Below, one piece after another: positions 51,001-63,000 of a stretch of 64,000 nucleotides of DNA. Positions within the stretch are counted from its first letter, which is position 1, and the number at the start of each line of letters is the position of its first letter. The stretch covers positions 2,728,001 to 2,792,000 of the forward strand of contig NW_026262675.1 in NCBI RefSeq assembly GCF_021869535.1, read 5' to 3'. The stretch comes from Mytilus californianus. Lineage: Eukaryota. Made by a program: the position numbers.

Positions 51001-54000
51001 TAGTGGGAGGCCAATGTCAATTGGTATGCAGTTGTGTAAGCATTAGCACATCTCATTTCCATGGAGAATACGTAGCCCCGCCCCTTCAGTCATGGTATAT
51101 TGACTTTGAAACTTTTGCTTAGTTTACATGCATTAGTTTGTGATTAGATAAGTTTAAGATGAACCACTAATGTTAAGTCAATGATATTTGGTATTCAAAT
51201 TTATTGGCATTTGCAAGTCTCGTTTCCATGGAGATTATATAGCCCCACCCCCTCATCATGGTTTATTGACTTTGATACTTTGACATAGTTTACAAGTTAA
51301 TGCTTGTGTTTAGGTTTGTTTAAAGGGAACGACTTATGATAAGGCAATGGTAATTGGTATGCAGTTGTATTAGCATTGGCACATCTCATTTCCATGGAGA
51401 TTGTTTAACCATGTGCCTTCAGTCATGGTTCATTGACTTTGAATACTTGCATAACTTACATGTTAAAGTATTGCTATTTTAATTTCAACATTTGCATTAT
51501 CAGAATTACAAAAAGACGAGACATATCTCTGTGTTAACAGTTTATTAAATATGTGATACTGTTTTACCATAGATTATCATGTCGATACACAAGGTCTTTT
51601 TCCATTGGAGTTTCTCAGGTTTTGTTTTTCATCTTAATTTGTATATTCTGATTTACGAGATTTAAATATCAGTAAACTACTCATGCCTCTAATTCAGATA
51701 TAGTTTAAGTACTGTTTCCTCTATCTAAATATCGGTAAACTAGTGTTGCCTCCAATATAAATATCGGTAAAATAATGTTGGCTCCATTATAAATATCGGT
51801 AAACTAGTGTTGCCTCCAATATAAATATCGGTAAAATAGTGTTGGCTCCATTATAAATATCGGTAAACTAGTGTTGCCTCCAATATAAGTATCGGTAAAC
51901 TAGTGTTGCCTCCAATATAAATATCGGTAAAGTAGTGATGCATCTAATTTTTATTCCAGCAAACTTGTATCGCCTCTAATTTACCCTAGTTATCTGACAG
52001 ATGATAAAAAATATGTATGACATAACATTCCACGAAACTGGTATTAAGCAGCCTTTTTCGTATGTATAGAAAGCAAACATATATATTTCCTGAAAATTTA
52101 CAAGTATACCGAAAGGTATTTAAAATTGATATTTTACCACAATTTCCCTACACAAAAAGAAAAAAAAATATATTCCATAATTTTAAACTTTGCATTCTAT
52201 ATATACATTCGGAGTCCTAAAAATGAACTGTTGGTATAAAAATCGCAAAACCAAATCTGCAACAACTACAATGAACAAAATTAACACAAAGGACACAAAC
52301 CCTCCAGGGGATAATTTAAACACCACTCTCACATTCATACCTGTAATATGGATAGAAGTTCAGTATTAAATGTTTAATTGAGGGATGCTTACTTCCTTTT
52401 TTTTGACATCAGTAATTACTTTATCAGTTGACAATGCAAGTATCGGAAATAGACTAAATGCTTTTTTTTGTAGTTCAATTATCCAAGCACATAACATTGG
52501 GCCAGGGGCATTTTAAGGCTGACACAAGAACATTACAAAGGAGATTCATATTGTGAAGAACTTTGTAGTATTATCGTTAATGTGTGTGGATTTTCACGTT
52601 CTACAGTTTAAAAAATATCAAAATTTAACACTAAACTAAAGCGAATGGGGAATTGATATTCCCTTTTTTAGTCTTACACAATGAGCCTAAGAATACACTG
52701 AGGTAATCATTGTATTTTAAATTGTAGTAAGCTCATACTGTTTGTAGCCAGTGATCACAGGCGCTTAGAGAATTGGCCCCTTTTTTCTATATATTCTTCT
52801 TACTAATAAGTGGGCTTCATATGACTGCTGTTATTGTAAAATCGTATGATATGGATAAGAGCAAGAAGGCATTAGATAAGTGAAAATAGATTAAATTATT
52901 AAGGAATATTTATTACAATAAATTAAAGCACTTAAAATATACAGAAAAGGGGGGGTCTATTCTCTAAAATCTGTATCATTGATATTTGAATTGCATATTG
53001 ATAACTGATTTATAATTCAGTTTACAAACATTTACAACTTGGCATATTTAATCTATAGAAATCTGAAACAAATATCACTAATTTTTGCAACTTTTATCAA
53101 AAAACGATAGACCAATTAAGTTAAATGTAATAACCTTTTTTTTGTCTGTTTCCATCAGATTATGAATTAATCCGCTTTTAACATTTGTTTCCAACTGTTC
53201 AGAAATAAATGAATTCAGAACGATCATGTTAACAATGCATGTGATCAAACTTATTACGTTATATGACAGTTACAAGTCTATACATCATTTTATGCTTTGC
53301 GAGAATTATTTGACAACAAGCACATTCACCCTCATTTGCGTCCTATTACACTTCTTTTTTTTGTGTATTGCTAATCCTTTTCGTTATCTTAAAGTGTTGT
53401 CAATCCTGTCTGCATGATCTTTCTATCACTTTTAAGAGACAAAAATTTTAATCGTCCATCATTATAAAACTCAGAAGAAGTATATGCTCCCTTTTTTCTC
53501 CTCTTCGAGGGCGTATGCAAAGTACATTCCTCTTTGAAACCTATATATAGCAAAGCCGCAAATGTCGCCACGTTGACAAGAAACATGGATGGATGTGGAA
53601 AATCATTGATACTTTTAGTTCTGTCATGTTTTACTTTATGTTGCTCTTTAGTTCTTTTTATTATTGGAATTTTTACGGTCTCGTGGATGAAAACGTCCGG
53701 AGTTGGGACCTCGTATGATTATGGACTGTTCAAGGAGAGGGATTGTGATCGCGACAAATGTACATACACGACATGGTCAGAGTTAATGAACGAGGGTAAG
53801 ACTGTAGTGAAACATCGACCATTCAGATTTTGTGGGAGCATGTTTTTTTTAATAAATTGTTTTATTCTAAATTTCTTGAAAAAATAGTTTGTTTCCATTT
53901 GAATTGAGCGAAAAAAATTAACTCGACATTAGTTTTCATTTTAAAATGCGTGTGCCTAGCTGTATCTTATTGATAAACACAGTTTGCTTTTGAATTAAGT

Positions 54001-60000: not shown

Positions 60001-63000
60001 TGCTCATGTTTTCCTCTTATATTTGATGCGTTTCTCTCAGTTTTAGTTTGTAACCCGGATTTGTTTTTTCTGTATCGATTTATGAGTTTCGAACAGCGGT
60101 ATACTACTGTTGCCTTTATTCATGTAAGTATATGTCTAATTCGGTATAGGTCATATTCGGGGGAAGGGGACGAGATCGTAGTTACGACAATTGGAACATA
60201 TCCGTCGTCATCTGTGAAACAGATATTCAATAACGGTCAACCAACTCGTGATGGCGTCCGTAAAATTTTCAAAGGGATTATTTCAACTTCATCGCTTGGA
60301 ACTCTTGGTTTAAAAGCTTCCTTGTGAGCAGCAACCCTCTATCAAGGAAATCATGATAGGAAACACAAGCCCTGGAATATCGGATCAACTGGGAGATATA
60401 TACTCCGTAAGCAGGCGCTGCTGGAGTGTTGCTATATAGAAATTGAAATTTCATAATTGGGAAAGTTGAAATCATCTATTTTGTCGTACAATTCTGTTTT
60501 CAACCGACCCTCATTGTCAATTTCTAGATGTTTGTCAAGATATGGGGCAGACTTAATTAACTGTATCTGTTGTATCCTTAAAATAATTGCGCTAATCTGA
60601 ATCGTACCGTCCCTCTTATACTTTACTTCTTCTCATTTCTTCACTGTTAAAACAGTCAGTTACGCAAATAGTGTTCTGATGATGTCCAAACTAATATTGC
60701 TTTTGTAATATTTTGACTGAGTGTGAATTCACATGGCGGATGAAGCATGCATAGCCAGGAGACGCTTACCTTGTTGACGCACCATGCAGGTCAGTTAATG
60801 CGATTCCCTCAATTTTTATTCTTTGCCTTGATTTGTCTCTTTTTAAATTTGAATATCGGTAAACTACTGTCGATTTAACATTAATATATTCATTAGTACA
60901 TTTCACATTACATTTTATTCATTTCAGTGGTATGCGTCAGATGACTTTATTAACTTTAAAGGATTGAAAATCGTTTTGCAATAGCCCATCTCATCCAACG
61001 AATTGATAATTATGCATTCATAAAGACAAACGGAATAACTGTTTACAGATTGATAGTTAAATTAATATGTACATACACAAGTATGTACATTTACCATAAC
61101 TCTTTCTTTAAAGTGATTTATAGTTACCTAAAAACATTAAAACCAGTCTTTAATTTTGTGGATGTGGTCCCAAAACATAATACATTTCGAAATTCTACAA
61201 GACCGCAGACATGCATTAAAAAGACAGGCGGAATAACTGCATAGATCGAAATTGTCATATTTAATATTGTCAGATTAAAAATTGTAAAAATAAAAGATAT
61301 ATACCACAAGACTGACTCTTTTTTTTTTTAAAGTTGTACAATCTAGTTTTATTTTAACACAACCAATATTAATTTTTTCATCCCAATGGTCTTGGTTCCA
61401 AAATTATGAATTTCAGATGATCTTAATACATTTTGATTCTTCCACTTAAATCAGTCTGAATTACTAGAAGGATTATACAATGAAGCAGTCGCTTAGAACA
61501 ATTTAATTCTTGTCATCACAAACTATTTTTCAAACTAGTTCCAAACAACAAAACAAGATCTAGAGTTGACTAGGGTGTCCATTGGAAAAGAACGCAAAAT
61601 GTCAACTTTATTGAATACCATAAGAGTAATATTGAGGCACTTTACAGAATCAACCTTTCCATTTTTCACCAGTCTTATTTTTTAAACAAATACTTAAAAT
61701 TTCTCCGAGTATCGACATGTTGATCTATTTTTTTCAAAATCATATCTTTCAGATTGGTATAGAGCAACACAGGCAATGGAATGTCTTGGATTGATTTGTC
61801 TAGTTTTGGCTTTACTGATCCTGTTATTGTACTTCTGTGTACCATCATGTAAAGTACGGAAGGCACTCTATGGAATGATTTTCTTCACATTTTTAGCAGG
61901 TAATTGCAATTATTTCTCTTCGTTTTACTCTTATTAATAATATTAAGATATTCATACATTTGGTATTTTTTTTAGTAATTAATATTCTGAAACATAGCAG
62001 GGTATGATTATGCAGTTCTGATTTTTCCTGATCCAAGCATGTTTTCACTTTCACTAAATCATTGCAATTTTAAACAATGAATAGAAACATTCACCAAAGC
62101 ATTAGCTTGTTTCAAGTCAAAACGAAAAATCTACTCAGAAACATAAATTTTTTTTACCGATATTCAACAGATAGTATTAAAACTTTACATTGTTTTTTCT
62201 TCTTCTTCATGGAACATGATATTTACTTTTTAAAGAAAAGAAACAACTGTAGGCACTTTTTTAGAATACTGTTTACCAAGTTAATATGAAATGCCTGTAC
62301 CAAGTCAGGAATATGTTAGTTGTTTTCCATTCGTTTATTGTGTTTGAGCTTTAGATTTTGCCATTTGATAAGGAACTGTCCGTTTTGAATTTTTCTTGGA
62401 TCTCGGTAATTTTTGTTATTTTACTTTTTATTGTAATGATCCTTATTTTTTTGTCTTTTTTTCAGTAATTTTCATTGTGATTGGAATTGCCATTTTCGGT
62501 TCGAAGTTCGACGAAAAAGGATTTGACGTCGGATGGTCCATGGGATTAGCGATTGCTGCAGCATTGTTAGCTTTTATCTCAGGAATTTTACAAATTTTAG
62601 AGATGACATAATATTGTATATATATATATGTGTGTGTGTATGAGTGTTTCATGTCGTATAATCATTATAAATTGTTGTATGTTTCACTGTTTTGAATTGT
62701 TACATATGTTTTGGTGTCAACAGTTTCCACTTACTACATGTTAAAACCATTGTTGTCGTTAGATTATTAATTGTTATATTTGCTTACAATGAATATACTT
62801 GTCGTTACATATCATCTCGTTTATTATGAATGCTGTGCAAAATATTTTTTTCCATTTTTTTGTTTCCTACAGTTTCAACGACTGTCAATCCAAGATATTT
62901 TACAATTGTTGGGTTTAAGAGTTCATGGTGAAAGGAAATTAAAAAAGGCGATTCGTACGCAGCAAAGTATGTTATTTTCATTTTCTAGCATTGGGTCAAG

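What the first reader, a model, noticed from the sequence alone, without database searches (positions are those of the whole stretch)
53585..62611. Claudin-like gene with two interchangeable TM1+ECL1 first exons on shared constant exons
Seen: two ATG-initiated exons 5 kb apart each encode TM1 and the whole first extracellular loop, each has a TATA-like motif upstream and ends in a phase-1 donor. I found only one exon-2/exon-3 set (61753, 62466) and no WxxAxQA or GWS exon between 53795 and 58680. Both joins give intact 4-TM proteins (167 and 184 aa). Known: ECL1 sets adhesion and paracellular charge selectivity in claudins; vertebrate CLDN10a/b and CLDN18.1/.2 use alternative first exons, as do the UGT1A and protocadherin variable/constant layouts. 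Inference: an independently evolved variable-ECL1 switch in a bivalve junction protein.
Basis: partly seen in the sequence, partly recalled or inferred. Interest (0 to 1): 0.68.

Follow-up and report, generated by a model that had tools for sequence, protein, structure and literature searches.

The report
Mussel tetraspan gene, two first exons
A mussel gene for a small four-helix membrane protein has two alternative first coding exons that swap the first helix and first outer loop, a layout shared with scallops and oysters and already modelled by automatic annotation.

Summary
Exon 1A (53585-53795) and exon 1B (58680-58941) each start with ATG, encode TM1 plus the first extracellular loop, and end in a phase-1 GT donor. 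The window holds one exon 2 (61753-61899) and one exon 3 (62466-62611). A family HMM hits only these 4 of 3,634 six-frame pieces.

Peptides of 1B, E2 and E3 are exact substrings of Mytilus californianus XP_052097843.1 (184 aa). The 1A form matches M. trossulus LOC134709641 isoform X2 (167 aa), and isoform X1 is the 1B form.

The same layout, with a letter-identical 97-aa constant part, is modelled in 4 scallops (two first exons) and in oysters (up to three). It is therefore old and already annotated, though my searches found no paper on it.

1A carries the family's canonical W...GL[W/F]-x4-C-x4-C loop. 1B is a derived, longer loop without cysteines.

The protein belongs to the PMP22/EMP/MP20/claudin superfamily, but profiles place it nearer lens MP20 and TARP/CACNG gamma subunits than tight-junction claudins. 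A junction or charge-selectivity role is therefore unproven. The TATA-like motifs are no more than chance.

No RNA evidence was available for this species.

The parts
53585..53795 (+). Alternative first coding exon 1A. It encodes Met1, TM1 and a 37-residue first extracellular loop with the canonical W-x12-GLF-x4-C-x4-C pattern. Phase-1 donor AGG|GTAAGA.
   Evidence: 63 of 70 residues match M. trossulus isoform X2. Family HMM E 1.1e-11. The scallop X2 and Solemya variable parts hit here best (1.3e-6 and 8e-9).
58680..58941 (+). Alternative first coding exon 1B (coding part). It encodes Met1, TM1 and a 51-residue first loop with GLW but no cysteine, rich in aromatic residues and ending Ser/Thr-rich. 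Phase-1 donor CAG|GTATGT.
   Evidence: Exact substring of M. californianus XP_052097843.1. HMM E 7.9e-10. The scallop X1 and oyster no-Cys variable parts hit here (6.7e-11 and about 1e-10).
58487..58679 (+). Probable 5' untranslated part of exon 1B (inferred). It includes the TATA-like motif at -18.
   Evidence: The N-terminal leader of P0020 is a spliced 1B-type ORF on a 1,034-bp unnamed contig. It aligns to 58487-58552 and 58516-58605 in shifted frames, at E 0.14 and 0.003. This is weak and at protein level only.
61753..61899 (+). Constant exon 2. It encodes the end of the first loop (D-WYRATQAME), TM2, a short cytoplasmic turn and the first half of TM3. Phase 1 in and phase 1 out.
   Evidence: Exact substring of XP_052097843.1. 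HMM E 1.9e-19.
62466..62611 (+). Constant exon 3 (coding part with stop). It encodes the second half of TM3, the short second loop (GWSMG), TM4 and three more residues, then TAA.
   Evidence: Exact substring of XP_052097843.1. HMM E 1.7e-18. The first polyadenylation-like ATTAAA lies at 62938.
53796..61752 (+). Intron removed in the 1A form. It contains exon 1B.
   Evidence: GT at 53796 and AG at 61751-61752. No other family-like exon lies inside.
58942..61752 (+). Intron removed in the 1B form.
   Evidence: GT at 58942 and AG at 61751-61752.
61900..62465 (+). Intron 2, common to both forms, phase 1.
   Evidence: GT at 61900 and AG at 62464-62465.

Best explanation
This is a single gene of the PMP22/EMP/MP20/claudin tetraspan superfamily. 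It is the orthologue of M. californianus LOC127732704 and M. trossulus LOC134709641.

The gene makes two proteins by mutually exclusive use of two 5' coding exons. Each first exon supplies its own start codon, TM1 and almost the whole first extracellular loop. Each is spliced in phase 1 to the same exons 2 and 3, which encode TM2, TM3, the second loop and TM4.

- Exon 1A gives the ancestral-type loop, with the two conserved cysteines that presumably form a disulphide.
- Exon 1B gives a derived loop that is 14 residues longer, has no cysteine, is richer in aromatic residues, and carries net charge +2 against -2 within the exon.

Shown here: the exon anatomy, the reading-frame compatibility, the family membership, the absence of other exons in the window, and the existence of matching database proteins for both forms in a sister species and in scallops and oysters.

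Inferred: both forms are made in this species; each exon has its own promoter (alternative transcription start rather than splicing from a shared leader exon); and the swap changes what the protein binds outside the cell. That partner could be a neighbouring cell's copy (adhesion or septate-junction role) or a channel or receptor that it accompanies (gamma-subunit-like role).
For: - Anatomy and phases.
- One E2/E3 set only.
- Database proteins: 1A matches XP_063425863.1 (isoform X2, 167 aa, 63/70). 1B, E2 and E3 are exact substrings of XP_052097843.1 (184 aa). Isoform X1 of the same M. trossulus locus is the 1B form.
- Pfam: P0006 scores 39.5 bits on PF00822 (cut-off 26.7) and 31.1 on PF06653 (28.7). 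P0011 scores 33.9 on PF13903 (29.1) and 29.7 on PF00822.
- Each window exon alone gives sub-threshold hits at the right profile positions.
- Conservation of the layout: 7 of 7 isoform sets tested share a letter-identical 97-aa constant part that begins at the same residue. The sets are M. trossulus, M. yessoensis, P. maximus, S. echinata, S. cucullata, C. virginica and O. edulis.
- Exon orthology: the no-Cys exons of mussel, scallop and oyster form one clade with support 97/90. tblastn best hits are reciprocal.
- 1A looks constrained. ATG, frame and donor are intact. Only 2 conservative changes fall in its 37 loop residues against M. trossulus. A 1A-type exon in a more distant unnamed relative (P0113, 33/70 identical) keeps W, GLW and C-x4-C and ends at the same point.
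- W34, G47, C54 and C59 are at least 90% conserved in 78 family members.
- Both ATGs have A at -3 and G at +4.
Against: - No transcript data for this species could be examined.
- Among the named Mytilus proteins found, only 1 of 5 species (M. trossulus) has the 1A form. M. californianus, M. edulis, M. galloprovincialis and M. coruscus show only the 184-aa form.
- 1A has diverged more than 1B from M. trossulus (7/70 against 3/87 residues). It has GLF where the family has GLW.
- All unnamed short-contig ORFs that contain 1A or 1B of Mytilus are unspliced read-throughs, so they say nothing about splicing.
- The AU test does not reject a mussel-only duplication (p 0.173). It rejects a scallop-only one only marginally (p 0.040). 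The groups were named after seeing the tree.
- Global identities barely separate like from unlike exons: A-A 34% and B-B 28%, against A-B 23-24%.
- Promoters are not shown, and the TATA-like motifs are chance-level.
Confidence: 0.72

Rival explanations
1. Exon 1A is a silent relic in this species. It would be the ancestral first exon, functionally displaced by 1B and still intact by chance or recent disuse. The gene would then make only the 184-aa protein.
For: RefSeq or GenBank proteins of 4 of 5 Mytilus species show only the 184-aa form. No protein with the window's own 1A was found in the collection (2 hits among 21 candidates, neither from M. californianus). 1A diverges faster than 1B and has GLF in place of GLW.
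Against: ATG, 70-codon frame and consensus donor are intact. The changes against M. trossulus are conservative, with only 2 in the loop. The M. trossulus X2 model uses it. A 47%-identical 1A-type exon with all motif residues persists in a more distant relative. The cysteine-type isoform is modelled in 4 of 4 scallops and in several oysters.
Confidence: 0.12
2. Both forms are made, but from one promoter. A shared non-coding leader exon upstream of 1A would be spliced to either 1A or 1B. This would be mutually exclusive internal exons rather than alternative first exons.
For: Nothing in the sequence proves a promoter at either exon. An AG (tatatag|caaag) lies 33 nt before the 1A ATG. The first in-frame stop upstream of 1A is only at 53465.
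Against: For 1B, the leader of the spliced P0020 ORF appears collinear with at least 190 nt of genomic sequence just upstream of the ATG. It runs through the candidate acceptors there (weak, E 0.003 and 0.14). Recalled, not tested: the known parallels CLDN10, CLDN18, protocadherins and UGT1A all use one promoter per variable exon.
Confidence: 0.13
3. 1A belongs to a different, neighbouring paralogue whose downstream exons were missed or lie outside the window.
For: Only 1.4 kb of sequence follows exon 3, so anything downstream is unseen.
Against: No second E2- or E3-like piece exists anywhere in the window, including 53796-58679. 1A lies upstream of 1B on the same strand with the same donor phase. 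M. trossulus X2 carries 1A on a constant part letter-identical to X1.
Confidence: 0.02

Closest known systems
Vertebrate CLDN10 (claudin-10a / -10b) and CLDN18 (18.1 / 18.2)
   Same: [quoted passage not shown] For claudin-10 I read passages of PMC6862131. For claudin-18 I saw only an abstract start in a search listing, PMC11178514. The logic matches here: the start codon sits in the variable exon, and the swap is confined to TM1+ECL1.
   Different: This is a different branch of the superfamily. The protein has no C-terminal cytoplasmic tail. One variant lacks the cysteine pair altogether. Oysters have three variable exons. No evidence exists for paracellular channels or for any junctional location.
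Lens fibre membrane intrinsic protein (LIM2/MP20) and EMP/PMP22
   Same: Best solved-structure match of the family profile (9cbv_A, E 1.5e-19, 73 bits). Similar size (about 170 aa) and a very short C-terminus. One scallop orthologue is named 'lens fiber membrane intrinsic protein-like isoform X2' by its source. Atlas neighbours include 'epithelial membrane protein 1'.
   Different: Orthology is not established. Recalled, not tested: PMP22's alternative exons 1A/1B are non-coding, so they do not change the protein.
TARP / CACNG gamma subunits (for example gamma-2 stargazin), GSG1L, LHFPL4
   Same: Second-best group of profile matches (2.2e-18 to 1.9e-11; LHFPL4 2.4e-10; GSG1L 6.7e-10). An Atlas cluster is automatically named 'CACNG6 family protein'. 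In these proteins the first extracellular loop faces the partner channel (recalled).
   Different: TARPs have long cytoplasmic tails and larger loops. No partner channel is known or testable here.
Variable/constant first-exon arrays (clustered protocadherins, UGT1A)
   Same: Several upstream exons, each with its own start codon, are joined one at a time to shared downstream exons.
   Different: There are only two exons here (three in oysters), not dozens. Promoter choice is not shown.

Membership tests
PMP22/EMP/MP20/claudin superfamily (Pfam PF00822, PF13903, PF06653) | Whole-protein score above Pfam's gathering cut-off | tested here: met
   Database orthologues: P0006 scores 39.5 on PF00822 (cut-off 26.7) and 31.1 on PF06653 (28.7). 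P0011 scores 33.9 on PF13903 (29.1) and 29.7 on PF00822. 64 of 78 family members match PF00822 at E<=1e-3. The window's exons singly are below cut-off (11-17 bits) but hit the right profile positions. The joined window protein was not scanned.
PMP22/EMP/MP20/claudin superfamily | Four transmembrane segments with a large first and a small second extracellular loop | tested here: met
   Hydropathy per exon and on the database proteins gives four segments. The Atlas model of P0006 (pTM 0.79) has TM-score 0.83-0.93 to claudin-superfamily clusters.
PMP22/EMP/MP20/claudin superfamily | First-loop motif W...GLW...C...C (passage of PMC3879130) | tested here: inconclusive
   1A has W34, GLF (F for W), C54 and C59, so the motif is met but for one residue. 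1B has W37 and GLW but no cysteine, so it is not met. W, G and both C are at least 90% conserved in 78 relatives.
Classical tight-junction claudins | Closer to claudins proper than to other branches of the superfamily | tested here: not met
   Family profile against solved structures: MP20 1.5e-19 and TARP/CACNG 2e-18 to 2e-11, against claudin-18 1.2e-7, claudin-15 3.4e-7, claudin-19 7e-6 and claudin-9 9e-6.
Classical tight-junction claudins | Cytoplasmic C-terminal tail ending in a PDZ-binding motif (recalled feature) | tested here: not met
   The reading frame stops three residues after the last hydrophobic segment (...ILQILEMT*).
Classical tight-junction claudins | Location in cell junctions and a barrier or paracellular-channel function | not testable with these tools
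   No expression or localisation data. Paper searches found nothing on this locus.
Alternative-first-exon architecture of the CLDN10/CLDN18 type | Two or more ATG-bearing exons, each encoding TM1 plus ECL1, with the same donor phase into shared exons | tested here: met
Alternative-first-exon architecture of the CLDN10/CLDN18 type | Both joins present in mRNA | tested here: inconclusive
   Both proteins are modelled for M. trossulus (X1/X2), for 4 scallops and for several oysters. Only the 1B form is modelled for M. californianus. No reads could be examined. That such isoform models rest on RNA alignments is recalled, not checked.
Alternative-first-exon architecture of the CLDN10/CLDN18 type | A separate promoter for each first exon | not testable with these tools
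   The TATA-like motifs are at chance density (145 in 64 kb). There is weak protein-level evidence for a long contiguous 5' leader of 1B.
TARP/CACNG gamma subunits | Association with and modulation of an ion channel or receptor | not testable with these tools
   Only profile similarity is available. No complex was modelled.

The most novel reading that the evidence does not exclude
An old variable-loop cassette in an MP20/gamma-subunit-like tetraspan, at least as old as the common ancestor of mussels, scallops and oysters. The gene would keep the canonical disulphide-bearing first loop on one first exon. It would also have evolved one or two further first exons, one of which has lost both cysteines and grown longer. 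Promoter choice would then switch the protein's extracellular partner between tissues or conditions. That partner could be a cell-adhesion contact or a channel or receptor. This would be a third, independent case, after CLDN10 and CLDN18, of evolution using the conserved intron after ECL1 to make loop-swap isoforms. It would be the first such case outside vertebrates and outside claudins proper.
Probability: 0.35. Interest if true: 0.6.

Novelty: new member of a known kind. Interest (0 to 1): 0.4.

Why it matters
In the claudin superfamily the first extracellular loop is the part that meets the outside world. Depending on the branch, it faces a neighbouring cell, the paracellular pore or a partner channel.

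A gene that swaps this loop and nothing else is a natural experiment in specificity. Here the layout appears conserved across mussels, scallops and oysters, and one variant has dropped the otherwise near-invariant cysteine pair. That gives a simple, testable handle on an uncharacterised mollusc-wide protein family. Which tissues use which loop, and what does each loop bind?

The practical consequence is small. The M. californianus annotation probably lacks the 167-aa isoform.

Tried and rejected
The only fold evidence is the Atlas's own model of P0006. The Atlas has no model of the 1B form.
2. A search for a third first exon used the variable parts of 27 relatives in tblastn against the window. 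It found only 1A and 1B. The other hits carry stops or lie in the 147-bp tandem array.
3. A search for degenerate constant exons between 1A and 1B found none.
4. Unnamed short-contig ORFs were checked as splice evidence for Mytilus. All are unspliced read-throughs.
5. The tree and AU tests for the age of the duplication agree only partly. The no-Cys clade has support 97/90. The tests do not reject a mussel-only duplication (p 0.173) or A-type monophyly (p 0.245), and reject a scallop-only duplication only marginally (p 0.040). Global identities are not decisive.
6. TATA-like motifs as promoter evidence were rejected as chance-level.
7. Six paper searches found nothing on this locus or its orthologues by name or accession. 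Supplementary tables were closed and may list these LOC ids in expression studies.
8. Nucleotide-level comparison (dN/dS, exon order in oysters and scallops) was not possible.
9. No complex prediction was run, because no binding claim is made.
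Full report
WHAT IS THERE

I read the three stretches named in the finding and translated each exon on its own.

- Exon 1A runs from the ATG at 53585 to 53795 (70 codons plus one base). It ends at a consensus donor, AGG|GTAAGA.
- Exon 1B runs from the ATG at 58680 to 58941 (87 codons plus one base). It ends at CAG|GTATGT.
- Exon 2 follows a pyrimidine-rich acceptor at 61753. It is 147 nt long, so it enters and leaves in phase 1.
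- Exon 3 follows a strong acceptor at 62466 and stops at TAA 62609-62611.
- The split codons read G+AT (Asp) for either first exon and G+TA (Val) at the second junction.

Both ATGs have A at -3 and G at +4. Neither has an in-frame ATG between it and the nearest upstream stop. Hydropathy gives one membrane segment in each first exon and four in the matching database proteins.

IS IT MORE THAN CHANCE, AND IS ANYTHING MISSED?

- tblastn of the four exon peptides against the window finds only themselves. The next best hits are E 0.12 or worse and carry stops.
- The motifs W..A.QA, GWSMG and W...GL[WF]...C...C occur once each in all six frames.
- An HMM built from 78 family members was run against all 3,634 stop-to-stop pieces of 12 or more residues. 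It hits exactly four: E2 1.9e-19, E3 1.7e-18, 1A 1.1e-11 and 1B 7.9e-10. The fifth best is E 0.32. The M. trossulus orthologue is in that HMM, which helps these scores.
- The variable N-termini of 27 relatives find no third first exon.

There is therefore one constant set and two first exons in this window. Only 1.4 kb follows exon 3. The window has no N and is 31.8% G+C.

They carry no weight.

WHOSE GENE IS IT?

Exon-level searches of the large protein collection gave few hits:
- 1A: 2 hits among 21 candidates.
- 1B: 1 hit among 33 candidates.

The 1A hit with a name is XP_063425863.1, 'uncharacterized protein LOC134709641 isoform X2' of Mytilus trossulus. It is 167 aa and matches the window at 63 of 70 residues.

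The 1B cluster holds 184-aa proteins of M. edulis, M. californianus, M. coruscus, M. galloprovincialis and M. trossulus isoform X1 of the same LOC134709641.

The window's 1B, E2 and E3 peptides are each an exact substring of M. californianus XP_052097843.1 and of no other species' protein. The window is therefore most likely M. californianus.

For that species, and for three of the other four, only the 184-aa form is in the collection. The unnamed short-contig ORFs that contain 1A or 1B are all unspliced read-throughs, so they give no evidence about splicing.

THE LAYOUT IS OLD AND SHARED

A profile search found 66 hits at E<=1e-3 among the 8,000 candidates scored. Cluster look-ups followed. 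Together they show the same gene with several isoforms in other bivalves:
- Scallops: X1 (180 aa) and X2 (168 aa) in 4 of 4 species (Mizuhopecten yessoensis, Ylistrum balloti, Pecten maximus, Argopecten irradians).
- Oysters: X1-X3 in Saccostrea cucullata and Crassostrea virginica, X1-X2 in S. echinata, and X1 and X3 in Ostrea edulis.

In 7 of 7 isoform sets tested, the last 97 residues are letter-identical between isoforms. The difference starts at the same residue, just before the W[YF]R.TQA motif. That is exactly where the window's first exons end.

The variable parts fall into types:
- A cysteine type with GLW-x4-C-x4-C (mussel 1A, scallop X2).
- Two further cysteine types in oysters (C-x5-C and C-x8-C).
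- A type with no cysteine, a longer loop and GLW[KR]Y (mussel 1B, scallop X1, oyster X2/X3).

Gastropod, chiton, Solemya and Mya relatives have only the cysteine type and carry no isoform label in what I saw. In 78 family members W34, G47, C54 and C59 are at least 90% conserved. So 1A is the canonical loop and 1B the derived one.

HOW OLD?

I built a maximum-likelihood tree of 34 variable parts using 76 of 140 columns. I left out P0048 because my motif pattern missed it, P0038 because it is a fragment, and all hits I did not pick.

- The tree puts all eight no-Cys exons in one clade (support 97/90), with the oyster C-x5-C exons as sister (81/81).
- Mussel 1A groups with the single exons of Mya (89/83) and Solemya (82/84).
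- tblastn best hits are reciprocal. Scallop X1 hits 1B (6.7e-11) and not 1A. Scallop X2 hits 1A (1.3e-6) and not 1B.

Against this:
- AU tests do not reject a mussel-only duplication (p 0.173). They reject a scallop-only one only marginally (p 0.040). The groups were named after the tree was seen.
- Global identities separate like from unlike exons only slightly, 34% and 28% against 23-24%.

I therefore rate a single old origin of the no-Cys exon as likely but not shown.

Variable exons evolve much faster than the constant part. Between mussel and scallop they are 28-34% identical against 67%.

WHAT FAMILY?

The database orthologues pass Pfam's cut-offs for PMP22_Claudin, Claudin_2 or Claudin_3. 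64 of 78 relatives match PF00822.

A whole-library HMMER search with the M. trossulus X2 protein found 125 representatives at E<=1e-3 and 32 at E<=1e-10. This is a modest, mostly mollusc family.

The 78-member profile, run against solved structures, matches in this order:
- lens MP20: 1.5e-19
- TARP gamma-2: 2.2e-18
- other CACNG subunits: 1e-16 to 2e-11
- LHFPL4: 2.4e-10
- GSG1L: 6.7e-10
- MOSMO: 5e-8
- claudin-18, -15, -19 and -9: 1e-7 to 9e-6

Atlas neighbours agree. The protein also ends three residues after TM4.

It is thus a member of the claudin superfamily but not a claudin proper. 'Junction protein' and 'charge selectivity' are borrowed from the wrong branch.

The two loops do differ in ways that should matter:
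- 1A: 37 residues, 5 basic and 7 acidic, 2 Cys.
- 1B: 51 residues, 8 basic and 6 acidic, no Cys, 9 aromatic residues against 6, and a Ser/Thr-rich end.

HOW IT MOST LIKELY WORKS

One of two upstream exons is chosen and joined to the common exons. This gives two tetraspans that differ only in TM1 and the first outer loop.

I think separate promoters are the more likely means. The leader of a spliced 1B-type ORF on an unnamed 1,034-bp contig (P0020) seems collinear with about 190 nt just upstream of the 1B ATG. That evidence is weak. Recalled, not tested: all known parallels work that way. A shared leader exon is not excluded.

What the loop binds is unknown. Adhesion or septate-junction contact and a gamma-subunit-like partnership with a channel are both open.

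COMPARISON AND NOVELTY

The logic is that of claudin-10a/10b. Passages of PMC6862131 state that exon 1a or 1b changes TM1 and ECS1. It is also that of claudin-18.1/18.2, for which I saw only a listing.

The superfamily loop motif is described in PMC3879130 (passage).

Six full-text searches found no paper on this locus or its orthologues. Supplements were closed.

Automatic annotation already lists the isoforms in about ten species, and the kind of arrangement is known. I therefore file it as a new member of a known kind, of moderate interest.

NOT DONE

- No eukaryotic genomic loci could be fetched, so there is no dN/dS and no exon maps for other species.
- No RNA data were available.

Noticed in passing
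window 31134-36170 (+): Three long open frames (31134-31778, 34159-34752, 35385-36170) match successive parts of Pfam DUF4735 (profile positions 10-91, 204-237, 260-283). The middle one scores 34.5 bits against a cut-off of 31.2. The last ends in a single hydrophobic segment and an acidic low-complexity stretch. This is probably an unrelated multi-exon gene upstream of the tetraspan gene.
   Followed up: partly
window 36935-37993 and 47550-47940: A 147-bp tandem array (7.2 copies, 92% matches), and a related 145-bp array about 10 kb downstream. Their translation gave spurious weak tblastn hits, with stops, to oyster variable exons.
   Followed up: partly
window 48926-50435; 50652-51462; 341-1352: Further satellite-like arrays with periods of 496 bp (3 copies, 96%), 167/332 bp (4.8 copies) and 488 bp (2 copies). 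They lie 2-4.5 kb upstream of exon 1A and at the window's start.
   Followed up: no
window 20625-21410 (-) and 59821-60327 (+): Open frames of 261 aa and 168 aa with no Pfam match. The second lies in the intron between 1B and exon 2 and looks like repeat-derived sequence.
   Followed up: partly
database proteins P0053 and P0057 (unnamed contigs): Two other family members from unnamed sources also lack the loop cysteines. Loss of the cysteine pair may therefore have happened more than once in this family.
   Followed up: no
C. virginica LOC111131736 and LOC111131754: Two locus ids carry the same three isoform proteins (X1-X3). This could be a very recent duplicate, a haplotig or a change between annotation releases.
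   Followed up: no
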